A stretch of DNA of 64,000 nt from an uncultured Anaerolineales bacterium (GCA_964528475.1 CAZGSX010000003.1:1681-65680); one strand, 5' to 3'. Counted from the stretch's first letter, positions 9,785 to 51,120 are shown. Notes: generated by a model not told the origin, from the sequence alone. Numbers and translations are program-made.

Positions 9785-9868
9785 GCCGGAGTGGCGGAAC
9801 AGGCAGACGCGCGCGACTCAAAATCGTGTGGGCTTTGACCCATGTGGGTTCGACTCCCACCTCCGGCA
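9785..9868 (+). tRNA. tRNA-Leu (anticodon CAA), class II with long variable arm
   Basis: 7-bp acceptor GCCGGAG/CTCCGGC, D-arm GCGGAACAGGCAGACGC, anticodon stem CGCGA/TCGTG with loop CUCAAAA, long variable arm, T-arm GGGTTCGACTCCCAC, discriminator A; CC but not full CCA encoded. Confidence 0.85.
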
Positions 9869-10324
9869 CCTCAGTATCAAGAACTTCTTGCGGCGTCCGG
9901 AGGGTGGCCACCTGCCCTGAGCGCCGCATTCGTCTATCAGGGATGCGAAGCCCGACCGATGCCCGCCCCGGCGCACTCCGTGACCCGGGCTTCTTCGTCG
10001 ACTTCGGCGCCCGCCTGACTATTGCTTACGGGAGTCCCGGCCAGACCCTTTGGGCCAGGAGGAGGTCCCCAAGGCCAGCGAGCCGCCTTACATCAGCGTG
10101 GTCGCGGGCGGTGGAGAAAGCAAAGGGCAGTGGTTGCCGCATGGGCGACGTCGACCAGGGACGCCGGTCCAGAGCTAATTGCCCCCAAGCTCAACGACGG
10201 GTTGGGACATGGGGCAACCAAGATGATTCGCCTCACCCGCTGTGGCGTCACTGTCTTGCAGTTGGGCCAACCAGTGACCAAGGGGTGAGTCATAGAGTCA
10301 TCCACGCTTCGAAGGGAGTAAGCG

Positions 10325-17926: not shown

Positions 17927-19399
17927 CTATGCAGACTGGATTCCGGATATCGGAAGAGCGTAGCGGACCGTGAGTCCTCCTCCGGGCGTCTCCTCGGCCC
18001 ACATCCGCCCCCCGTGCGCTTCCACAATGTGACGGGCAATGGAGAGCCCTAACCCACTCCCTCCAGTTGCCTGGCGGCGACCCGGATCACCACGCCAGAA
18101 GCGCTCGAATAGATGTGGCAACTGGTCAGGCGATACCCCCGGGCCGTCATCGATCACGGAGATGACGGTCTCTGTGCCTTCCCGCAGAGCTTCCACCCTG
18201 ATGCTTCCGCCCCGAGGGACATAGTGTAGGGAATTGGTGAGCAGGTTCCCCATTACCTGGGCCAGCCGGTCCCGGTCGGCGAAGACAGTGGGCAGAGCAG
18301 TCCTTGTCTCCAGGGCCAGGGCAACCCCTTGCTCTTGAGCCGCGGGCTGATACGCCTCCACAATGCCCTTGAGAAAGGCCTGGAGGTTCACACTGTCCCG
18401 CGCCAGCTGCAGCTTCCCGGCATCGGCGAGAGCCAGGATGCGCAAATCCTCAATCAAGCGGGCGAGTGTCCGGGTTTGAATGAGCGCTGACTCCAGATTC
18501 TCACGATCAGTAGGATAGATCTCGTCCAGCATAGCCTCCAATGTGCCCTGGAGAACAGTGAGAGGGGTGCGCAGCTCGTGAGCAATGTCAGCCGTCTGAC
18601 TACGGCGGGCTTCCTCTATGCGGTGAAGGCTCTCCGCCATTTCATTGAAGGACTCCGCGAGCTGCGCGACTTCGTCCTGTCCCCCAACCTCTGCCCGGAC
18701 CGAGAGATCGCCCTGCGCGATGGCCTCGCTGGCAGCTGTCAGCTCTCGCAGAGGAGCGGTGATCGAACGAAACAGCAGCCCCCCGATGATGAGCGCAACG
18801 CCCATGGCCACAGCCCCTCCTATCCAGAGATTCCTTCGGACGCGAGAGAGAAAGGCCGCTTGGGCAGGATCCAGGGGCCAGTCGGGCTGGGCTCTGAGCG
18901 CCGGGAGTAGGTAGCCCACAACCTCCCCGCCCACTTCGATGGGAACCCCCTCATCGACGTCAACCGGCGAGACCACCCCGCCGGGGAGGCCTTGAGTGTC
19001 CGCGACGACCTGCCCCTGCGGCTCTGCAACCCGGAACTCCAACACAGTTGGCGGACCACCCGGGCCGCCAGAATCCCTGCTCCGCCAGCGGTGCCACGGA
19101 CTGTGCCGCTCCTCGAGGGTGTTCTGAAGTCCTTCCCAGGAGCCACGCACCTCATAGTAGTCAGCCAGCTGAGTCGTCAACTCCTCCCATGCGCCACTGC
19201 GGGTCACTGCGTACCGCCGGAAGGCGCTCTCGGTGGCGCGGCCCGTCAGTATCGAGACAGTTCCCACGGCGACGAGGATGACAACCAAGAAAGCTAGCAT
19301 CCCCTTGCCGAATAGACTACGCATAATCACCCCGTCCAACTGAGTCGCTGTCGCCAGCGAGGCCTTGGGATCCGTTGCCCGCGAGAGGGACCCGCGCAC
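17927..19399 (-). CDS. Sensor histidine kinase (periplasmic sensor, HAMP, HisKA, HATPase_c), OmpR-partner type
   Basis: Two TM helices flanking a ~150-aa periplasmic domain. HAMP. H-box HELRTPLTVLQGTLE. G-boxes GGSGLGLSIARHIVEAHGG. Immediately downstream of the response regulator gene. Confidence 0.9.
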   Translation of the reverse strand: MRGSLSRATDPKASLATATQLDGVIMRSLFGKGMLAFLVVILVAVGTVSILTGRATESAFRRYAVTRSGAWEELTTQLADYYEVRGSWEGLQNTLEERHSPWHRWRSRDSGGPGGPPTVLEFRVAEPQGQVVADTQGLPGGVVSPVDVDEGVPIEVGGEVVGYLLPALRAQPDWPLDPAQAAFLSRVRRNLWIGGAVAMGVALIIGGLLFRSITAPLRELTAASEAIAQGDLSVRAEVGGQDEVAQLAESFNEMAESLHRIEEARRSQTADIAHELRTPLTVLQGTLEAMLDEIYPTDRENLESALIQTRTLARLIEDLRILALADAGKLQLARDSVNLQAFLKGIVEAYQPAAQEQGVALALETRTALPTVFADRDRLAQVMGNLLTNSLHYVPRGGSIRVEALREGTETVISVIDDGPGVSPDQLPHLFERFWRGDPGRRQATGGSGLGLSIARHIVEAHGGRMWAEETPGGGLTVRYALPISGIQSA

Positions 19400-19419: not shown

Positions 19420-20121
19420 CTAGGCACTTTCCAGCTCCGGGTTCAATCGGTACCCCGCCCCGCGAACAGTGAGGACGTAACGAGGATCGGAGGGTGCGGA
19501 CTCGATCTTCTGGCGCAAGTTCTTGATATGGGCATCGACCGTGCGCTCGTAGGCCTCGAACGCCACCCCTTGCACCGCCTCGAGAATCTCCGCCCGAGAG
19601 AAGACTCGCCCCGGTCGGCCCATCAGAACCTCCAGCACATCGAACTCGGTGGGGGTCAGGTCCACTCGGTCACCCTCAACGGTCACCGTGTGGGTAGCCC
19701 GGTCCAGAGTGATCGGTCCCGCCCGCAGTACTGGAGCCGGCTCCCTGCCCTCGGAGGGCTGGGCCCGGCGCAGGACAGCGCCTACACGGGCGACAACCTC
19801 CCGAGGGCTGAAAGGCTTGGTGACATAGTCGTCAGCCCCCAGCTCCAGCCCCACAATACGGTCGGTTTCCTCAGCCCGGGCGGTGAGCATGATGATGGGA
19901 ACATCTCGCTCGCGACGAATTCGCCGAGTGAACTCGAGGCCGTCCATCTTAGGCATGAGAATGTCGAGGACGACCAGATCCGGCTGTTCGTGGCGTGCCG
20001 TGTAGAGGGCATCCTCGCCATTGTAAGCTGTAACGACGCGGTAGCCGGCCTGTTCCAGGTACGAACGTAGCAGCCGGACGATTTCCGGCTCATCATCGAC
20101 GACCAAGATTGTCTGGCTCAT
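19420..20121 (-). CDS. OmpR/PhoB-family response regulator (REC + winged-helix)
   Basis: ILVVDDEPEIVRLL...DLVVLDILMPKMDGLE receiver. C-terminal winged helix LTPTEFDVLEVLMGRPGRVFSRAEILEAV...VDAHIKNLRQKIE. Confidence 0.9.
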   Translation of the reverse strand: MSQTILVVDDEPEIVRLLRSYLEQAGYRVVTAYNGEDALYTARHEQPDLVVLDILMPKMDGLEFTRRIRRERDVPIIMLTARAEETDRIVGLELGADDYVTKPFSPREVVARVGAVLRRAQPSEGREPAPVLRAGPITLDRATHTVTVEGDRVDLTPTEFDVLEVLMGRPGRVFSRAEILEAVQGVAFEAYERTVDAHIKNLRQKIESAPSDPRYVLTVRGAGYRLNPELESA

Positions 20122-20371
20122 GGATCACCTTCCCTGCTCATCACGGTGCAAGATGGACTCAAGGTAGTATAGCGGGAACACCTCGATTCGAACAGCACCC
20201 GGACGTGCAGGGCGGCGACTGAGAAGCGTATCACCGCCTCTGCTGTGACGTGGATGGGCTCTAGATCATGCCACAAGGAACTCGCCCCACGGTCTCTGCT
20301 CCACGCAATTCCCTTCGTGTGTCCTCGCATCGCCAATCGCTGCGGATGTTCTGAGCTTCATCGTAGGATAC

Positions 20372-20410
20372 CAGCATTGCGTGAAGATTTGATGAAGGTC
20401 GGATGAAGAT
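20372..20410 (+). promoter_or_regulatory. Array of four direct hexamer repeats at exact 11-bp periodicity: putative OmpR-family response-regulator binding site upstream of the TCS operon
   Basis: TGAAGA(20372) N5 TGAAGG(20383) N5 TGAAGA(20394) N5 TGTGAT(20405). Adjacent to a minus-strand extended -10 TGGTATCCT (reverse complement of 20355-20363). Confidence 0.6.
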
Positions 20411-20843
20411 CCGATGTGATTCAGCAGATCCAGGCGGTGAGGTGCAGCGGATGTACGTCGTCGAAAGGAAGCATCGAGTGCACGCAAGGCACCATCTGGA
20501 GGCCACCGTGGAGAAGAGTGCGACTCCAACGCCCACATCACCCTCTGGCGCAAGGTTGACGTCGGATGCGGACTTTCGCGCGGACATGGCTGATGGGCCC
20601 CACTCCCTAACGTCACGACTGAGGCAGGTGCAGCACTTGATGGTGTGTGCATACCCTGCACTAAAGATCAGATTCGGATGCAGATTGAGAATCGTGGGTG
20701 GTCCGGCTGCAGGGTCACAAATAGAGGACGGTACGCGCGCTAACAACAGCTACGAGAGGGGGCGACTGGGATAGACCAAGTCATAGAATCGATGGATGTT
20801 ATTGAATGGCGTTGCGGATGATCTACAAAGCCTAGGCAAATAC

Positions 20844-20872
20844 TTGACAAACTGCCCGTTGTGTGTTATAAT
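20844..20872 (+). promoter_or_regulatory. Consensus sigma-70 promoter TTGACA-17-TATAAT upstream of fasciclin gene
   Basis: TTGACA 20844-20849, 17-bp spacer, TATAAT 20867-20872. About 150-nt 5' UTR before ATG 21024. Confidence 0.7.
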
Positions 20873-21023: not shown

Positions 21024-21989
21024 ATGTTGAAGGCAAGAGTTGGCTTATTACTGGCGGTCGCAATGTTGGTCGCCGCGGTACCCGTGGCGTCCGCTGCTGG
21101 ACATCAGACGATCGTCGATATCGCCGTGCAGGATGGCCGATTCGAGACGTTGGTCGCTGCTGTGACGGCTGCGGATCTGGGCGGCGCTCTGTCCGGTGGG
21201 GAATGGACGGTTTTCGCTCCGACCGATGAGGCTTTCGCGAAGCTCGGGTTGAGCCCCAGCAACGTCGCGACTGCGTTTAGCAAGGACGAGCTGACGGATA
21301 TCCTGCTATACCACGTGCTCGAGGGGGAAGTCTATTCAGATAAGGCACTGGCCCTACAGGGTGACGTCACGATGGCCAACGGTCAGCGGGCTGGCCTCAA
21401 GAGCTTCCAGGGCGACATCTACGTCAACGATGACTCCAAGGTCATTATTGCGGACATCCCCGCCTCCAATGGCGTGATTCACGTAGTGGACACAGTGATT
21501 CTGGGACCATGGCCCAGGACAGGCGAGGAGTCGGATGCACCAGTGTCGGCTCCGGCAACGGGCGACACCATCGTCGACATAGCAGCAAGTGATGGGCGGT
21601 TCAGCACGTTGGTGGCAGCGGTAACAGCCACTGGCCTGGCAGACGCGCTATCCGGCGGGGAATGGACGGTGTTCGCTCCCACCGATGAGGCCTTCGCGAA
21701 GTTGGATTTGAATGCTGGCAACATCGCGCAGGCATTCAGCAAGGACGAGTTGACCGATATCCTGCTTTATCACGCCCTCCCGGTGGAGGTGTTCTCGGAT
21801 AAGGCCCTGACCCTCGTGGGCGACGTGACCATGGCTAACGGTCAGCGCGCCGGCCTGAAGAGCTTCCAGGGCGACATCTATGTCAACGATGACTCGAAGG
21901 TGATCATCCCCGACATCAACGCATCCAACGGGGTGATTCACGTCGTCGATACCGTGATTCTGCCGCCGTGGCCGCGGACCGATAAGTAA
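21024..21989 (+). CDS. Secreted protein with two tandem fasciclin (FAS1) domains
   Basis: Signal peptide. Two ~155-aa repeats each with FAS1 motifs (TLVAAVTAA..LGGALSGGEWTVFAPTDEAFAKL, DILLYHVL, SNGVIHVVDTVIL). The repeats are also about 85% identical at DNA level (21096-21560 vs 21561-21985). Confidence 0.85.
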   Translation: MLKARVGLLLAVAMLVAAVPVASAAGHQTIVDIAVQDGRFETLVAAVTAADLGGALSGGEWTVFAPTDEAFAKLGLSPSNVATAFSKDELTDILLYHVLEGEVYSDKALALQGDVTMANGQRAGLKSFQGDIYVNDDSKVIIADIPASNGVIHVVDTVILGPWPRTGEESDAPVSAPATGDTIVDIAASDGRFSTLVAAVTATGLADALSGGEWTVFAPTDEAFAKLDLNAGNIAQAFSKDELTDILLYHALPVEVFSDKALTLVGDVTMANGQRAGLKSFQGDIYVNDDSKVIIPDINASNGVIHVVDTVILPPWPRTDK

Positions 21990-22059: not shown

Positions 22060-22546
22060 TCTTATTTCCTCTCGCACCATTGACCACCACTGTAGGGGCA
22101 CAATGCCCTATGTCTCCCCGCCAGCAGCCCCCCCAATCGGAGAACGCCAAGCCGCTTCGGCGAACTCCCAGGTCAGCTTCCAGGCATCTGCGTTGTCTCA
22201 ACCTCTCATGGGCTGCTGCGCGCTGCCTTCCCGGTGCTCCGCCGTCATGGAGAATTGTTAGGGCATGTATTAACAGGGACTCGAGCCTCAAAGCGGCTCA
22301 AGACCGGGTCAGGCGACGGGGGAAGGAAGCGGGAACTCGCATGTAGATTTGCCGATCATCAGCCGCAGAATGCCAAGACGTGCGTGCTCCGGAAGGCTTC
22401 AAGAGCGGTAAAAGACGAGAGGGGGAGTGTGGTCCACCCCCCCCGCCGGCACTACCTAGATGGCAGGACGGCAGTCCTGATCAACATCCGTCACGGCCAT
22501 CTACCGTCGTCCTGCATCTGGTTCTCAATACTGACACCATCTGGGA

Positions 22547-23368
22547 CTAGCGGCCCATGCCTCGACCACGCGGGCCCTGCTGTGGTCGGGGGCGTCCCCC
22601 GCGTCCAAAGCCCTTCGCACCGGGCATGAAGCCCCGGTCCAATCCTTCCTTCATCCACTCGGCCCGGTCCTCTGACAGACGTCCCTCCTCGATCGCCTGC
22701 CTCCTGGCCTCGCTCTGAGCCGCCTCCAGGGCGTCCCGCACTGCCTCCAAGTCGACTTCTCCAGCCTCAGCAAGCTCCTCCACGCTCTTCCCACCGTGGA
22801 GTTCCTTGAAGAGCTCGACGGGCTCCATTCCCAGCGCATCGGCCACCGCATCGAATAGCCCCGTCCAGCCATCACCAAACCGACCGAGAAGACGACCTCC
22901 GAAACGCTTAGTGCCAACTATCCGCGGCTCGCAGGACCGGTTGAGCTGGTCAGCAATGCGCTGTTCTAGCTGCTCCAGCATCTCCTCTCTCTGTGCCTCG
23001 GTCAGCCGACCTGCCTGCACCGCGTCGTCCAGCCGGACCGCGTGCTCCGCCAGAGCGCTCTCAAGCAGCTCCTGGGGATCAGCGCCCTCGGCCTTGGCGA
23101 TCTCGACGAATGTGTGGCCGTCTTCGAGGGCGGCCATGACCTCCTCCTCGCTCAGCCCTGTGAGATCGGCGGTCACGCTCGCCAGGCCCTGAAAGGGCAG
23201 CGGATCGGCAAAGCGACCTCCGCCAGGGAACGGTCCCCTGCGCATAGTCTGCCAGTCACCAAACGGCGGCTGAGGGCCCCGGGCATAGGCCACGCCCACG
23301 CCCATCAGCAACGCCAAGGTACCTGCAACAATGCCCAGTACGACGTAGCGTCTCCTACCCTGAAACAT
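22547..23368 (-). CDS. Exported hypothetical protein, possible CpxP/Spy/ZraP-like (LTXXQ-motif) periplasmic stress protein with Gly/Arg-rich tail
   Basis: N-terminal TM/signal (VVLGIVAGTLALLMGVGVAYA). LTEAQREEMLEQLEQ (LTXXQ-like). Helical Glu/Ala-rich repeats. GAGGAGG RBS. Promoter carries the same 11-bp repeat array as the TCS operon. Confidence 0.5.
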   Translation of the reverse strand: MFQGRRRYVVLGIVAGTLALLMGVGVAYARGPQPPFGDWQTMRRGPFPGGGRFADPLPFQGLASVTADLTGLSEEEVMAALEDGHTFVEIAKAEGADPQELLESALAEHAVRLDDAVQAGRLTEAQREEMLEQLEQRIADQLNRSCEPRIVGTKRFGGRLLGRFGDGWTGLFDAVADALGMEPVELFKELHGGKSVEELAEAGEVDLEAVRDALEAAQSEARRQAIEEGRLSEDRAEWMKEGLDRGFMPGAKGFGRGGRPRPQQGPRGRGMGR

Positions 23369-23430
23369 ATCGCACCTCCTCGTAGACGTAATCGTAGCCT
23401 AAACGCTCCTAGTATGATACCACAATAATA

Positions 23431-23469
23431 TGAAGATCTGATGAAGAAACAGTGCAGAATCGATGCAGG
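23431..23469 (+). promoter_or_regulatory. Second array of four hexamer direct repeats at 11-bp periodicity at the promoter of 22547-23368 (minus strand)
   Basis: TGAAGA(23431) N5 TGAAGA(23442) N5 TGCAGA(23453) N5 TGCAGG(23464). Minus-strand extended -10 TGGTATCAT (reverse complement of 23413-23421) about 9 bp away, so the repeats occupy the -35 to -75 region. Confidence 0.6.
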
Positions 23470-23473
23470 TCGC

Positions 23474-23665
23474 TTAGCTCTGCGTCAATTCGCCTCGCCA
23501 TGACTCAGGGAGCCGCAGCCAGTATCCGCCGTAGCCTCCGATGTAGAAGCGCAGCTTCGTGGCATCCGGTTCCTGACGCCGCAACAGATCGCGCGAGACG
23601 CACACCGTCAGGCCATCCACGGTCTCAAAGCTTACATAGGCGTCTGGATTGTCGGGCGCGGCCAT
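23474..23665 (-). CDS. Small hypothetical protein (63 aa), uncertain
   Basis: ORF only; lies between the CDF gene and the repeat array; no recognisable motif. Confidence 0.25.
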   Translation of the reverse strand: MAAPDNPDAYVSFETVDGLTVCVSRDLLRRQEPDATKLRFYIGGYGGYWLRLPESWRGELTQS

Positions 23666-23780: not shown

Positions 23781-24713
23781 TCAGCCGTTCTCTGATTCAT
23801 GGTTGTTCCCCTGATACGGACAGATGATCGTTCCGCCAGCACAACTCTGACACTCGACCTGGATGGTGGTATGCTCGATCCCGAACTGTTCAGCGAGCGC
23901 CGCCTCCAGGCGCTCCAAGATGCTTTGAGCTTCACTGATCGACTGGTCATCAAACACTACATGAGCGCTGAGCGCGATGTATCCGGGGCTTACCGTCCAG
24001 ACGTGCAGATCGTGGACCTGGGAGACGCCGGGGACGTCATTCATGGCCTCTGCCACCTGCGTTGCTGTCAAGCCCTGTGGCACACCTTCGATGAGGATGT
24101 GAAGTGCCTTGCGAAGTACGTTCCCAGCACCCACCAGGATAATGACAGCGATGACCAAACTGATCAGCGGATCGACAATTGTCCACCCGGTCAATACGAT
24201 GATCACGCCCGCGACGATGACGCCGATCGACGCCAGCGTGTCGCCGAGGACGTGCAAGAAGGCACTGCGGACGTTGAGATCCTCATGGTCGTGTCCACGC
24301 AAGACGAACGCCACCACGAGGTTCACGATCAAGCCGATGACGGCCACGACAAGCATCGGGCCAGCTAGGATGGGTTGGGGGTTCGAAAAACGTCCGATTG
24401 CCTCACGGACTATCTCGAACACCACCAACATCAGCGTCGTACCATTCACCAGGGCTGCCAGCACCCGCAGACGATGATACCCGTACGTGTGGCGGTCATC
24501 GGGTGGGAGCGACGTGAGGCGAATGGCAACGTAGCTCAAACCGAGAGCAAATGCGTCCAAGAAGACGTGAGCGGCATCTGATAGAAGCGCCAAGCTTCCG
24601 GTGACCAGCCCGCCCACCAATTCGGCGAAGAAGATCAGCCCGGTCAACGCCAGGGAGACGATGAAGCGCCTCTCTATCCCGCCGGACCCAACATGACCAT
24701 GGCTGTGACTCAT
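23781..24713 (-). CDS. Cation diffusion facilitator (CDF) family divalent metal exporter (CzcD/ZitB-like)
   Basis: His-rich N-terminus MSHSHGHVGSGG. Six TM helices with HxxxD motifs (LLSDAAHVFLDAF; FLHVLGDTLASIG). C-terminal cytoplasmic domain with Cys/His cluster. Confidence 0.9.
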   Translation of the reverse strand: MSHSHGHVGSGGIERRFIVSLALTGLIFFAELVGGLVTGSLALLSDAAHVFLDAFALGLSYVAIRLTSLPPDDRHTYGYHRLRVLAALVNGTTLMLVVFEIVREAIGRFSNPQPILAGPMLVVAVIGLIVNLVVAFVLRGHDHEDLNVRSAFLHVLGDTLASIGVIVAGVIIVLTGWTIVDPLISLVIAVIILVGAGNVLRKALHILIEGVPQGLTATQVAEAMNDVPGVSQVHDLHVWTVSPGYIALSAHVVFDDQSISEAQSILERLEAALAEQFGIEHTTIQVECQSCAGGTIICPYQGNNHESENG

Positions 24714-39194: not shown

Positions 39195-39269
39195 GGTGGG
39201 TGTGGCCTAATTGGTTAAGGCACCTGGTTGTGGCCCAGGCGATTGCGGGTTCGAGTCCCGTCACTCACC
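39195..39269 (+). tRNA. tRNA-His (anticodon GTG) with encoded G-1
   Basis: Extra 5' G (G-1) before acceptor GTGGGTG/CACTCAC. D-arm GCCTAATTGGTTAAGGC. Anticodon loop TTGTGGC. T-arm CGGGTTCGAGTCCCG. Discriminator C (pairs with G-1). Confidence 0.85.
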
Positions 39270-39274
39270 CAGCG

Positions 39275-39309: not shown

Positions 39310-39386
39310 GCCCCCGTAGCTCAACTGGACAGAGCGTCGGACTTCGAATCCGCAGGCTGGGCGTTCGAATCGCCCCGGGGGCGCCA
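39310..39386 (+). tRNA. tRNA-Arg (anticodon TCG) with encoded CCA
   Basis: Acceptor GCCCCCG/CGGGGGC. D-arm GCTCAACTGGACAGAGC. Anticodon stem TCGGA/TCCGC with loop CTTCGAA. T-arm GGGCGTTCGAATCGCCC. Discriminator G, then CCA. Confidence 0.85.
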
Positions 39387-50033: not shown

Positions 50034-50942
50034 TCACCTTGCCTCAGTGTCTCGCCACCGCAGCAGTGCGCGCTCAGCTAGACCTACGATGCCGTAGAGC
50101 AGCTGCGCCAGTATGACCAGCGTTCCGATTCCTACGAACACCTGGGGCGTGTCATAGACTTGTTGACCCTGCTTGAGCAGATATCCCAACCCCTGGTCAG
50201 CTGCGACGAACTCCCCAACCACGGCGCCGATGACGGCCAGCGTGGCGCCCACCTTGACGCCCCCCAGCAGCGTAGGCAGGGCTGCTGGCACCTCCAACAT
50301 CCAGATCATCTGCCAACGGTTGGCCTCCAGCGTGCGCATCAGATCGTGCAGATCCTGCCCCACACCTCGTACACCGACGACCGTGTTGACCAGGATGGGG
50401 AAGAAGACAATCAAGGCGCAGACTAGAACCTTAGACAGGATCCCGGTCCCGAACCAGATCACCAGCAGAGGGGCGATGGCCACGGTGGGGACCGACTGGG
50501 ATGCCACAATGAAGGGTGACAACAACTGCTCCGCCAGGGGGGAATGAGCGAGCAGATACCCTATCAGGGTGGCAGCTGCCGCGCCAATACCCAGCCCAGT
50601 CAGAATCTCGGTCAACGTCACCCGTACATGGAGCCAGAGGGTACCGCTGGCAATCAGGCTGCCCCAGCGCTGGACGACGGCAGCGGGCGACGGCAGAATG
50701 AAGACGGGGTAGTTGCCCACCCAGATGATCGCCTGCCAGAGCACCAAGAATACGGTCAGGCTCAGCAAGGCGAGGCCCATTCGCGACACGCGTCTGTTGG
50801 TCATACAGGCCATCCAACAAGAACCTCGCAGATGATCACTCATCCGCGAGGCAGAACCCACGGAAAAGAAAAACCCCGAAGACTGATCAAGCCTCCGGGG
50901 GACAAATCTGCTTCGCCGCAAGAAAGCTGCGGCACCTCTCAT
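50034..50942 (-). CDS. ABC transporter permease (SsuC/TauC-like)
   Basis: Six TM helices. EAA-like loop (LMRTLEANRWQMIWMLEVPAALPTLLGGVKVG). First gene of the permease-SBP-ATPase operon. Confidence 0.85.
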   Translation of the reverse strand: MRGAAAFLRRSRFVPRRLDQSSGFFFSVGSASRMSDHLRGSCWMACMTNRRVSRMGLALLSLTVFLVLWQAIIWVGNYPVFILPSPAAVVQRWGSLIASGTLWLHVRVTLTEILTGLGIGAAAATLIGYLLAHSPLAEQLLSPFIVASQSVPTVAIAPLLVIWFGTGILSKVLVCALIVFFPILVNTVVGVRGVGQDLHDLMRTLEANRWQMIWMLEVPAALPTLLGGVKVGATLAVIGAVVGEFVAADQGLGYLLKQGQQVYDTPQVFVGIGTLVILAQLLYGIVGLAERALLRWRDTEAR

Positions 50943-51120
50943 CTCCTTCCATCCGGACTTTTACCGTCGGCCCCGGTCTGGGTGGCTTTGTCATCGTCCG
51001 CCACCGTCACCGGATCGACCGCCTGCGCGGCTCGCGGGCTCGGCGAGCGTCTGGCTCACCTTACCGCCGGTCGGGAATCACACCCTGCCCCGAAGATGAT
51101 TATTCAATTGTGTGGTGCAA

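What the first reader, a model, noticed from the sequence alone, without database searches (positions are those of the whole stretch)
23431..23469. Second, nearly identical 4x11-bp hexamer array at the promoter of the CpxP/Spy-like exported protein gene
TGAAGA-N5-TGAAGA-N5-TGCAGA-N5-TGCAGG begins at 23431, 23442, 23453 and 23464. It has the same orientation and the same position relative to a minus-strand extended -10 (TGGTATCAT, reverse complement of 23413-23421) as the array at 20372. Two copies of such a specific periodic motif about 3 kb apart, each at a minus-strand promoter, are unlikely by chance. They mark a small regulon.
Basis: seen in the sequence. Interest (0 to 1): 0.7.

Follow-up and report, generated by a model that had tools for sequence, protein, structure and literature searches.

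The report
Response-regulator binding array at promoter
The four evenly spaced six-letter repeats are real and conserved in related bacteria, and they look like docking sites where the neighbouring two-component response regulator switches on a secreted protein gene and its own operon, which is a sound but ordinary kind of bacterial gene switch.

Summary
TGAAGA/TGAAGA/TGCAGA/TGCAGG start at 23431/23442/23453/23464. On the gene (-) strand they read as TCTTCA-type direct repeats with an 11-bp period, and the proximal one ends 11 nt before TGgTATCAT. The sister array starts at 20382 (not 20372) and has the same geometry.

A matrix built only from other species' arrays scores these two sites at 38.7 and 40.6 bits. 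The shuffle maximum is about 2, and nothing comparable occurs elsewhere in the 64 kb.

The same four-unit array, 11-nt gap and -10 occur upstream of orthologous exported-protein genes and of the RR-HK operon in about a dozen Chloroflexota (Anaerolineales-like) contigs. In one relative it also precedes an M50 protease/HtrA-like pair. None of these promoters has a usable -35.

My reading is tandem OmpR/PhoB-type response-regulator boxes (two dimers) that replace the -35. They would give positive autoregulation plus activation of a secreted helical-repeat protein.

The 'CpxP/Spy-like' label fails sequence and fold tests. The protein belongs to a very large, uncharacterised DUF2680-like repeat family. 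It is linked to such two-component systems, and to HtrA, in Actinomycetota as well, so a functional analogy remains plausible.

This is a new member of a known kind. Binding by the regulator is inferred, not shown.

The parts
23431..23469 (-). Four-unit direct-repeat array of the exported-protein promoter. On the gene strand, distal to proximal, it reads CCTGCA-tcgat-TCTGCA-ctgtt-TCTTCA-tcaga-TCTTCA with an 11-bp period, at about -62 to -24 relative to the inferred start site.
   Evidence: Cross-species matrix score 38.7 bits for 23427-23470. Conserved in orthologous loci.
23414..23422 (-). Extended -10 element TGgTATCAT, 11 nt downstream of the proximal hexamer. No usable -35: the best match is ATCAGA, 3 of 6.
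   Evidence: The transcription start near 23407 is inferred, not mapped.
23375..23379 (-). Shine-Dalgarno GGAGG, 6 nt before the ATG at 23368-23366.
   Evidence: Read from the sequence.
22547..23368 (-). Target gene: a 273-aa exported protein. It has an N-terminal signal-like helix with AYA|RG, two ~65-80-aa all-helical repeats carrying GRL(T/S)xxQ-type turns, and a Gly/Arg-rich tail. It is a distant DUF2680-like protein.
22420..22444 (-). Terminator-like hairpin followed by a T-run, downstream of the exported-protein gene. It would make the gene a single-gene transcription unit.
   Evidence: consensus scan only.
20382..20420 (-). Sister array upstream of the RR-HK operon. On the gene strand it reads ATCACA-tcgga-TCTTCA-tccga-CCTTCA-tcaaa-TCTTCA.
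   Evidence: Cross-species matrix score 40.6 bits. It is the only part of the intergenic region conserved in L006/L049.
20365..20373 (-). Extended -10 element TGgTATCCT of the RR-HK promoter, 11 nt after the proximal hexamer. It would give a leader of about 237 nt before the RR start codon.
19420..20121 (-). OmpR/PhoB-family response regulator (receiver domain plus winged-helix Trans_reg_C), the proposed binder of both arrays. Its recognition helix is ERTVDAHIKNLRQKIE.
17927..19399 (-). Sensor histidine kinase: two membrane-spanning segments around a ~135-aa extracytoplasmic domain (read from the sequence), then HAMP, HisKA and HATPase with no PAS domain. The best NCBIfam matches are BaeS-type, below cut-off. 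The true start is probably the ATG at 19324.
20642..20685 (-). Weak array-like site (aTCTGCAtccgaATCTGAtc...) about 220 bp upstream of the RR-operon array. It could be an auxiliary site or a relic.
   Evidence: 8.4 bits against a shuffle maximum of about 2. Not examined further.

Best explanation
The array is a set of four head-to-tail half-sites, that is two tandem 'boxes', for an OmpR/PhoB-family response regulator. The most likely binder is the regulator encoded 3 kb away at 19420-20121.

Proposed mechanism, in order:
- The kinase (17927-19399) senses an extracytoplasmic signal and phosphorylates the regulator.
- The phosphorylated regulator binds as two tandem dimers on one face of the DNA, following the 11-bp period.
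- The promoter-proximal dimer sits where a -35 element would be and recruits RNA polymerase to a promoter that has only an (extended) -10. This is class II, PhoB/PhoP-like activation.

The array at 23431-23469 would turn on a secreted helical-repeat protein. The near-identical array at 20382-20420 would give positive autoregulation of the RR-HK operon.

Gene neighbourhoods in relatives point to an envelope protein-quality and/or divalent-metal stress response as the physiological role. There, HtrA-like and M50 proteases sit behind the same array, a GDT1 cation transporter lies inside the array-driven operon, and a CDF exporter lies next door.

Shown here: the sequence, its geometry, its conservation and its genetic linkage. 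Inferred: binding by this regulator, activation rather than repression, the start sites and the signal.
For: 1. Non-random, matched arrays.

2. Phylogenetic footprint. I collected 22 distinct arrays (18 from other species' contigs, 4 from the window's own species) by searching for two TCTTCA-like hexamers 11 bp apart followed after 11 nt by TAnnnT. They share aTCTGCA-tcnaa-CnTTCA-N5-TCTTCA-tnnaa-TCTTCAcac-N8-TAtAnT. The two distal units were not used in the selection and are conserved all the same. The encoded exported proteins are only 41-57% identical. The array is the only conserved stretch in the 930-nt RR-fasciclin intergenic region.

3. Linkage to the regulator. Arrays lie upstream of the RR-HK operon in L006, L012, L046 and L048. 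The exported-protein gene sits directly upstream of RR-HK in L048, L054 and L055. The recognition helix is the same in L006, L012, L048 and L054, and nearly the same in L055, whose promoter carries a variant of the array.

4. Activator-type promoter. All 20 array promoters checked (20 of the 22 arrays) match a -35 at 3 of 6 positions or fewer, while the -10 matches at 4-6 of 6 in 18 of the 20. The same genome has a perfect TTGACA-17-TATAAT at 20844-20872, so its polymerase appears to use standard promoters.

5. The regulator is an OmpR/PhoB-family protein. Its closest solved relatives are BaeR, RegX3 and MtrA.

6. Structural precedent. M. tuberculosis PhoP binds 7-bp direct repeats with a 4-bp spacer. 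In cryo-EM activation complexes, one to three tandem dimers occupy PHO boxes, and the downstream pair overlaps and replaces the -35 contact (PMC4832192 abstract; PMC11825685).

7. Functional theme. The L053 array precedes Peptidase_M50 and Trypsin_2/PDZ genes. Actinomycetota relatives have an htrA-like gene, RR, HK and a DUF2680-like gene with TCTTAG-type 11-bp arrays.
Against: There is no experimental binding, start-site or expression data. The assignment to the adjacent regulator rests on linkage only. The window holds only two sites, so 'regulon' is a small claim, and the rest of the genome was not available to scan.

The window's exported-protein array has unusual distal units (TCTGCA and CCTGCA where relatives have CnTTCA and TCTGCA), so the distal dimer site may be weak. 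The RR-operon promoter implies an unexplained leader of about 237 nt. Read-through from the upstream CDF/small-protein genes could also express the target gene, since there is no terminator in the 105-bp gap. An array overlapping the -35 position could in principle repress.
Confidence: 0.75

Rival explanations
1. The sites and the regulator are the same, but the regulator represses. Binding over the -35 region occludes RNA polymerase, which would give negative autoregulation and stress-relieved expression of the exported protein.
For: The array covers about -62 to -24 and therefore the -35 position. OmpR/PhoB-family proteins can repress, as in the PhoP repression complex (PMC11825685).
Against: None of the 20 promoters checked has a functional-looking -35 that would need occluding. 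The fixed 11-nt gap to the -10 is conserved across all arrays, which is the hallmark of a precise activator-polymerase geometry. Positive autoregulation is reported for the related C. glutamicum MprAB system (PMC12113857).
Confidence: 0.1
2. The arrays are bound by a different OmpR/PhoB-type regulator encoded elsewhere in the genome, for example the phosphate regulator. The TCTTCAT half-site shares TCAT, the orientation and the ~10-nt distance to the -10 with the E. coli pho box CTGTCAT.
For: The regulator's best NCBIfam scores include PhoB and RpaB, all below cut-off. The half-site resemblance to pho boxes comes from my own knowledge of the pho box. L053 carries arrays but no RR/HK within 9 kb.
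Against: One array sits at the regulator's own operon in four lineages, and the target gene is fused to RR-HK in L048, L054 and L055. The kinase lacks the PAS domain of PhoR and scores far below the PhoR cut-offs. No phosphate-related genes are linked.
Confidence: 0.07
3. The periodic hexamers are not protein-binding sites. They would be a chance or compositional feature, a relic of duplication, or a DNA-structural element.
For: The arrays are AT-rich islands in a 62% G+C sequence (one search gives the composition), and short repeats can arise by slippage.
Against: Expected chance count is 0.02. The cross-species matrix scores are about 39-41 bits against about 2 in shuffles. Conservation is position-specific across proteins that are only 41-57% identical, while the flanks are not conserved.
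Confidence: 0.02

Closest known systems
PhoB/PhoP pho (PHO) boxes of the OmpR/PhoB family, with class II activation by tandem dimers
   Same: Direct repeats with an 11-bp period (a 6-7-bp core plus a 4-5-bp spacer). Two boxes make four half-sites. The proximal pair occupies the -35 position of a promoter that keeps only its -10. The regulator gene is autoregulated. The 4PhoP activation complex is a direct structural precedent (PMC11825685; PMC4832192).
   Different: The half-site is TCTTCA(y), not CTGTCAT or GTTCACC. The kinase has a large extracytoplasmic domain and no PAS domain. The targets are a secreted repeat protein and, in relatives, proteases and a cation transporter, not phosphate-uptake genes.
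MprAB envelope-stress system of Actinomycetota (mprA-mprB-pepD/htrA)
   Same: An OmpR-type regulator with positive autoregulation and an HtrA-like protease as target. The C. glutamicum MprA motif TKTTAAGAAM reads on its other strand as TTCTTAA (PMC12113857), which resembles TCTTCA here and TCTTAG in the Gaiellaceae-type loci. Those loci carry an htrA-like gene, RR, HK and a DUF2680-like gene with arrays of identical geometry. From memory, He & Zahrt 2005 describe two 8-bp direct repeats 3 nt apart, also an 11-bp period. That paper could not be read here.
   Different: The window regulator is only about 44% identical to the actinobacterial ones and has a different recognition helix (ERTVDAHIKNLRQKIE against SNSLDVYIGYLRRKTE). 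The sensor domains do not align. There is no htrA in the window.
CpxAR-CpxP/Spy, BaeSR-Spy and ZraSR-ZraP: a two-component system driving a small periplasmic helical chaperone or kinase modulator
   Same: The logic is the same: a neighbouring envelope sensor system apparently induces an exported all-helical protein that carries an LTxxQ-type motif (LTEAQ at residues 122-126). The kinase's best family matches are BaeS-type and BaeR is the closest solved regulator. CDF and GDT1 metal transporters are linked.
   Different: There is no detectable homology or fold match to CpxP, Spy or ZraP. The protein is a two-repeat member of a different and very large family. The binding motif is unlike the CpxR GTAAA-N5-GTAAA (my own knowledge).
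DUF2680 (PF10925), for the target protein
   Same: All 15 aligned family members hit PF10925 around the AVxxGRLTxxQ helix-turn region, with a best E-value of 3.4e-8.
   Different: The window protein itself scores E=0.029, below the curated cut-off. The family has no known function, and no paper in the library treats one.

Membership tests
OmpR/PhoB-type response-regulator binding array (tandem direct-repeat boxes) | Direct (not inverted) repeats of a 6-7-bp core spaced about one helical turn (10-11 bp) apart | tested here: met
   Four units at exactly 11-bp spacing in both arrays. No inverted repeat in 23380-23500.
OmpR/PhoB-type response-regulator binding array (tandem direct-repeat boxes) | The promoter-proximal pair overlaps the -35 position of a promoter that lacks a -35 consensus but keeps a -10 | tested here: met
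   11 nt from the proximal hexamer to TATCAT/TATCCT. The -35 match is 3 of 6 or fewer in all 20 promoters checked. The start site itself is not mapped.
OmpR/PhoB-type response-regulator binding array (tandem direct-repeat boxes) | A cognate regulator with a winged-helix Trans_reg_C domain encoded nearby, with a copy of the site at its own operon | tested here: met
   RR 19420-20121 has Response_reg plus Trans_reg_C. The array at 20382-20420 lies upstream of it, and the same holds in L006, L012, L046 and L048.
OmpR/PhoB-type response-regulator binding array (tandem direct-repeat boxes) | Specific, phosphorylation-enhanced binding of the regulator to the repeats | not testable with these tools
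   Needs EMSA, footprinting or DAP-seq.
Pho regulon (PhoR-PhoB/PhoP and pho box) | A PhoR-type kinase (cytoplasmic PAS between the membrane/HAMP part and HisKA) and a PhoB equivalog score | tested here: not met
   HAMP 209-259 is followed directly by HisKA 264-328. PhoR models score 179 and 130 bits against cut-offs of 334 and 390. PhoB TIGR02154 scores 245 against 296.
Pho regulon (PhoR-PhoB/PhoP and pho box) | Targets are phosphate-acquisition genes (pst, phoA and the like) | tested here: not met
   The targets are an exported repeat protein and the two-component operon. In relatives they are GDT1, M50 and HtrA-like genes.
MprAB (actinobacterial envelope-stress two-component system) | The regulator is orthologous to MprA, with the same recognition helix | tested here: not met
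   About 44% identity to the Gaiellaceae-type regulators. The helix is ERTVDAHIKNLRQKIE against SNSLDVYIGYLRRKTE. No reference MprA sequence was available, so orthology of those loci to MprA is itself inferred.
MprAB (actinobacterial envelope-stress two-component system) | An HtrA/PepD-type protease gene linked to and controlled by the system | tested here: inconclusive
   Absent from the window. The same array precedes M50 and HtrA-like genes in L053, and an htrA-like gene is divergent from RR-HK in L013.
CpxP/Spy/ZraP family (LTXXQ proteins), for the target gene product | Sequence membership: Pfam LTXXQ/CpxP-like models, or similarity to solved Spy, CpxP or ZraP | tested here: not met
   No such family for the window protein at E<=1, nor among the 25 families listed for the 15 homologues (76 more families were not shown). 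A profile search against PDB sequences at E<=10 returns no Spy, CpxP or ZraP.
CpxP/Spy/ZraP family (LTXXQ proteins), for the target gene product | A fold like the Spy/CpxP bent helical-hairpin cradle | tested here: not met
CpxP/Spy/ZraP family (LTXXQ proteins), for the target gene product | Presence of LTXXQ motifs in an exported, all-helical protein | tested here: met
   LTEAQ at residues 122-126, which lie in invariant or near-invariant columns of the alignment. The second repeat has LSEDR in the window protein and LTxEQ in most homologues. The N-terminal hydrophobic helix and the AYA motif are read by eye only.
DUF2680 (PF10925) | Score above the Pfam gathering threshold | tested here: inconclusive
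   The window protein scores 14.9 bits against a cut-off of 25 (E=0.029). All 15 homologues hit weakly, with a best E-value of 3.4e-8. Precomputed PF10925 hits are on record for 7 homologues, P0003, P0006, P0007, P0012 and P0014-P0016.

The most novel reading that the evidence does not exclude
The TCTT(C/A)(A/G) 11-bp array may be the cis-code of an unrecognised envelope-stress module that spans phyla (Chloroflexota and Actinomycetota). In it, an OmpR-type two-component system would control members of a very large uncharacterised family of secreted helical-repeat proteins (DUF2680-like, LTxxQ-bearing, more than 15,000 sequence clusters), together with HtrA and M50 proteases. The secreted protein would act as a non-homologous functional analogue of CpxP/Spy/ZraP: an extracytoplasmic chaperone, metal buffer, and/or feedback modulator of the kinase.
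Probability: 0.3. Interest if true: 0.55.

Novelty: new member of a known kind. Interest (0 to 1): 0.32.

Why it matters
The result gives a precise and testable regulatory model for an uncultured Chloroflexota lineage in which essentially no transcription factor sites are known: the binding motif, the promoter geometry, the regulator and two target units.

The cross-species matrix can be used to define the full regulon in metagenome-assembled genomes. The linkage offers a first functional handle on a very large family of secreted helical-repeat proteins with no assigned function. That linkage joins the two-component system, the DUF2680-like secreted protein, HtrA and M50 proteases and cation transporters, and it is seen in two phyla.

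The mechanism itself is textbook for OmpR/PhoB regulators, so the value is in annotation and hypothesis generation, not in new concepts.

Tried and rejected
- **Single-protein scan of genome contigs** with the exported protein found nothing. The alignment-based rescan worked.
- **RNA elements.** Rfam at gathering thresholds on the window, L006 and L012 found no riboswitch or RNA element in the leaders of either promoter. I had suspected a Mn riboswitch before GDT1.
- **ORFs in the RR-fasciclin gap.** The ORFs at 20403-20774(+) and 20118-20336(-) have no relatives outside the same species and were set aside as probably spurious. A gene caller had annotated the first of them.
- **Literature.** Searches for DUF2680 function and for a TCTTCA/TGAAGA regulator motif gave nothing usable. 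The original MprA-box paper is not held, and further MprA searches did not recover its sequence.
- **Other regulators from syntenic loci.** An ArsR- or Crp-type regulator, both encoded near the CDF gene in relatives, was considered as the binder. I rejected this because, from general knowledge, such proteins use inverted repeats, and those genes are absent from the window.
- **Inverted unit after the RR-operon -10.** The single inverted unit (20350-20362 against the array) was judged a likely chance match.

Full report
**Observation**

The + strand carries TGAAGA (23431), TGAAGA (23442), TGCAGA (23453) and TGCAGG (23464), exactly as reported. All neighbouring genes lie on the - strand. There the array reads CCTGCA-tcgat-TCTGCA-ctgtt-TCTTCA-tcaga-TCTTCA, followed by 11 nt (tattattgtgg) and TATCAT, with TGG just before it.

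The sister array reads ATCACA-tcgga-TCTTCA-tccga-CCTTCA-tcaaa-TCTTCA, followed by 11 nt (cgcaatgctgg) and TATCCT, again preceded by TGG. It starts at 20382, not 20372.

A three-unit degenerate pattern has 3 matches in the window, all inside these two arrays, against 0.02 expected. The two-unit pattern likewise hits only these arrays.

**Genes around the arrays**

On the - strand:
- A sensor kinase at 17927-19399, with HAMP, HisKA and HATPase domains and no PAS domain. Its best NCBIfam matches are BaeS-type, below cut-off.
- An OmpR/PhoB-family response regulator at 19420-20121.
- A 273-aa protein with an N-terminal signal-like helix at 22547-23368.
- A 63-aa protein at 23474-23665, whose orthologue has a weak CC/Se-family hit.
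- A CDF cation exporter at 23781-24713.

Between the two arrays, on the + strand, lies a fasciclin-domain gene (21024-21989). It has a perfect TTGACA-17-TATAAT promoter with TG at 20844-20872.

The array at 23431-23469 fills the 105-bp gap between the small gene's stop codon and the exported-protein gene. A GGAGG sits 6 nt before the ATG. A terminator-like hairpin follows the gene at 22444-22420.

**Comparative evidence**

The exported protein has orthologues of 44-56% identity on contigs assigned to uncultured Anaerolineales, and on JGI, ENA and Logan metagenome contigs. Synteny is conserved: CDF, small protein, exported protein, (fasciclin), [GDT1], RR, HK. In L048, L054 and L055 the order is exported protein, RR, HK directly.

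Upstream of the exported-protein gene every orthologous locus has the same structure. For example, L006 reads TCTACA-tcgaa-CGTTCA-tcctg-TCTTCA-tagaa-TCTTCA-cactccttggg-TATACT. A second array precedes the (GDT1-)RR-HK operon in L006, L012 and L046, and the RR gene in L048.

I collected 22 distinct arrays by searching for two TCTTCA-like hexamers 11 bp apart, followed after 11 nt by TAnnnT. Eighteen come from other species' contigs and four from the window's own species. The consensus is aTCTGCA-tcnaa-CnTTCA-N5-TCTTCA-tnnaa-TCTTCAcac-N8-TAtAnT. The two distal units were not part of the selection and are clearly conserved.

A matrix built only from the non-window species finds exactly the two window arrays, at 40.6 and 38.7 bits. 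Shuffled windows reach about 2 bits at most. The next independent site is 20642-20685 at 8.4 bits.

In the 930-nt RR-fasciclin intergenic region, the array is the only stretch that aligns to other species. Strain-level differences between the window and L001 fall at weakly conserved positions: the distal hexamer G to C, and a spacer A to G. More distant, lower-G+C relatives (L050-L053, L055, L059-L061) keep the architecture with variant units (CCTTTA, TTTTCA, TTCTTA) and the same 11-nt gap to TACAAT or TACAGT.

**How it most likely works**

Hexamer or heptamer direct repeats one helical turn apart are the binding mode of the OmpR/PhoB family. M. tuberculosis PhoP binds 7-bp repeats with a 4-bp spacer as a head-to-tail dimer (PMC4832192). 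Cryo-EM activation complexes show one, two or three tandem dimers on PHO boxes. The downstream pair overlaps the -35 element and replaces the sigma region 4 contact with -35 (PMC11825685).

The arrays here have that geometry. Taking the -10 as -12 to -7, the four units lie at about -29/-24, -40/-35, -51/-46 and -62/-57.

None of the 20 array promoters checked matches a -35 at more than 3 of 6 positions, even allowing 16-18-nt spacers. The -10 matches at 4-6 of 6 in 18 of the 20. The fasciclin promoter shows that a full consensus promoter exists in this same genome.

I therefore read both promoters as activator-dependent. The regulator would be the adjacent OmpR/PhoB protein, because:
- one array sits at its own operon in four lineages;
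- the target gene is physically fused to RR-HK in others;
- its recognition helix (ERTVDAHIKNLRQKIE) is the same in L006, L012, L048 and L054, and nearly the same in L055, whose promoter carries a variant of the array.

Binding, activation and the start sites (about 23407 and about 20358) are inferences.

**What the regulon may do**

The target protein has no Pfam or NCBIfam family above threshold. An alignment shows two repeats of a ~65-80-aa helical module (...GLSxEE...GKSxAEIA...AVxxGRLTxxQ...) and a Gly/Arg-rich tail.

AlphaFold models the two modules as helical domains. In the full-length model the first scores pLDDT above 90 and the second about 85. The first domain modelled alone scores pLDDT 90.

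All 15 homologues touch DUF2680 weakly. A profile search of 1.8 billion representative proteins finds 15,039 clusters at E<=1e-3 and 7,714 at E<=1e-10. Many have 3-5 repeats and some reach about 1,190 aa. I found no functional literature.

The neighbourhood does suggest an analogous role:
- In L053 the same array precedes a Peptidase_M50/CBS gene and an HtrA-like (Trypsin_2 plus PDZ) gene.
- In L006 and L012 a GDT1 cation/proton antiporter lies inside the array-driven operon.
- A CDF exporter is always adjacent.

None of the protease or GDT1 genes occurs in the window.

**An unexpected parallel in Actinomycetota**

Distant homologues of the exported protein in Gaiellaceae- and Thermoleophilia-type MAGs lie immediately downstream of an OmpR-type RR-HK pair (about 40-47% and 33-37% identical to the window proteins). 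In L013, the one locus examined in detail, an HtrA-like protease gene lies divergently upstream of the pair.

Directly upstream of the DUF2680-like gene these loci carry TCTTAG-N5-TCT(T/C)AG-N5-TCTTAG, then 11 nt and a hexamer about 5 nt before the ATG. That is the same geometry with a leaderless-like start. The htrA/RR intergenic region carries the motif in the other orientation (CTGAGA-N5-CTAAGA-N5-CTAAGA).

The C. glutamicum MprA motif TKTTAAGAAM reads as TTCTTAA on its other strand. MprAB there autoregulates positively and binds the htrA promoter (PMC12113857). I therefore regard the actinobacterial loci as MprAB-like and the window system as a Chloroflexota counterpart of the same design.

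It is not demonstrably an orthologue. The recognition helix differs (SNSLDVYIGYLRRKTE against ERTVDAHIKNLRQKIE) and the sensor domains do not align. In mycobacteria a chaperone (DnaK) is proposed to hold MprB inactive, and the authors draw the comparison with CpxP and CpxA (PMC8561658). That makes a kinase-modulating or chaperone role for the secreted repeat protein a reasonable but untested idea.

**Rivals**

- Repression by the same regulator is possible but fits poorly with promoters that have no -35 and a rigidly conserved activator-type spacing.
- A different OmpR-family regulator, such as PhoB, is disfavoured by linkage, by the kinase architecture and by the targets.
- Chance or a purely structural repeat is excluded by the statistics and by position-specific conservation.

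**Verdict**

The mechanism is the standard OmpR/PhoB tandem-box design. The system is an uncharacterised member of that kind in an uncultured lineage.

The most interesting by-product is the recurrent link, seen in two phyla, between such two-component systems and a very large family of secreted helical-repeat proteins of unknown function.

Noticed in passing
L013 7843-7870; also L014, L016, L018, L025, L033, L035, L042-L045 (upstream of the DUF2680-like gene) and the htrA/RR intergenic regions (e.g. L033 3429-3456): Actinomycetota relatives carry TCTTAG/TCTCAG units with an 11-bp period. An 11-nt gap and a hexamer then follow, about 5 nt before the ATG of the DUF2680-like gene, which looks like a leaderless start. 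The htrA/RR intergenic region carries copies in the opposite orientation. The geometry matches the window arrays although the regulator's recognition helix differs. The motif resembles the C. glutamicum MprA motif.
   Followed up: partly
window 20642-20685 (-): A weak third array-like site (aTCTGCAtccgaATCTGAtc...) lies about 220 bp upstream of the RR-operon array. It scores 8.4 bits against a shuffle maximum of about 2. It could be an auxiliary site or a relic.
   Followed up: no
window 20844-20872 (+): A perfect TTGACA-17 nt-TATAAT promoter with a TG extension lies upstream of the fasciclin-domain gene (21024-21989), which sits between the two arrays.
   Followed up: no
window 50937-51101 (-): An FMN riboswitch (RF00050, 94.7 bits). 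Also tRNA-Leu at 9785-9870, tRNA-His at 39196-39270 and tRNA-Arg at 39310-39386.
   Followed up: no
window 19324 vs 19399 (-): The longest kinase ORF starts at GTG 19399. The orthologue in L054 begins MRSLFGKG..., which points to the ATG at 19324 as the true start and leaves a gap of about 96 nt after the RR gene, as in L006.
   Followed up: partly
window 20118-20336 (-) and 20403-20774 (+): The ~237-nt leader of the RR operon holds a 72-aa ORF whose stop overlaps the RR start codon (ATGA). A 123-aa ORF lies on the opposite strand and was called as a gene in L001. Neither has relatives outside the same species. In relatives the equivalent leader holds a GDT1 gene or an unrelated small ORF.
   Followed up: partly
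L050 ~2345, L052 ~423, L053 ~5251, L055 ~230, L059 ~520: A conserved leader motif, GGCAGGTT(A/G)G(G/A)A(A/G)A with GAGCTA(G/A)CC following in L050, L052 and L053, sits immediately downstream of the -10 of the array promoters in the lower-G+C relatives. It is absent from the window.
   Followed up: no
L059 1124-1492; L061 6330-6698: Downstream of the exported-protein homologue only a C-terminal fragment of a histidine kinase remains, although the array promoter is intact. This may be a decayed two-component system.
   Followed up: no
window 22547-23368 (-), protein residues 246-273: The Gly/Arg-rich C-terminal tail (...GRGGRPRPQQGPRGRGMGR) is conserved as RGRGMGW in orthologues. Its function is unknown. 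The repeat family as a whole has more than 15,000 representative clusters, some with five or more repeats.
   Followed up: partly
window 23474-23665 (-): A 63-aa protein is conserved between the CDF exporter and the exported-protein gene in all syntenic loci. Its orthologue has a weak hit to the CC/Se-motif family (PF28096). Its stop codon lies 4 nt from the array.
   Followed up: no
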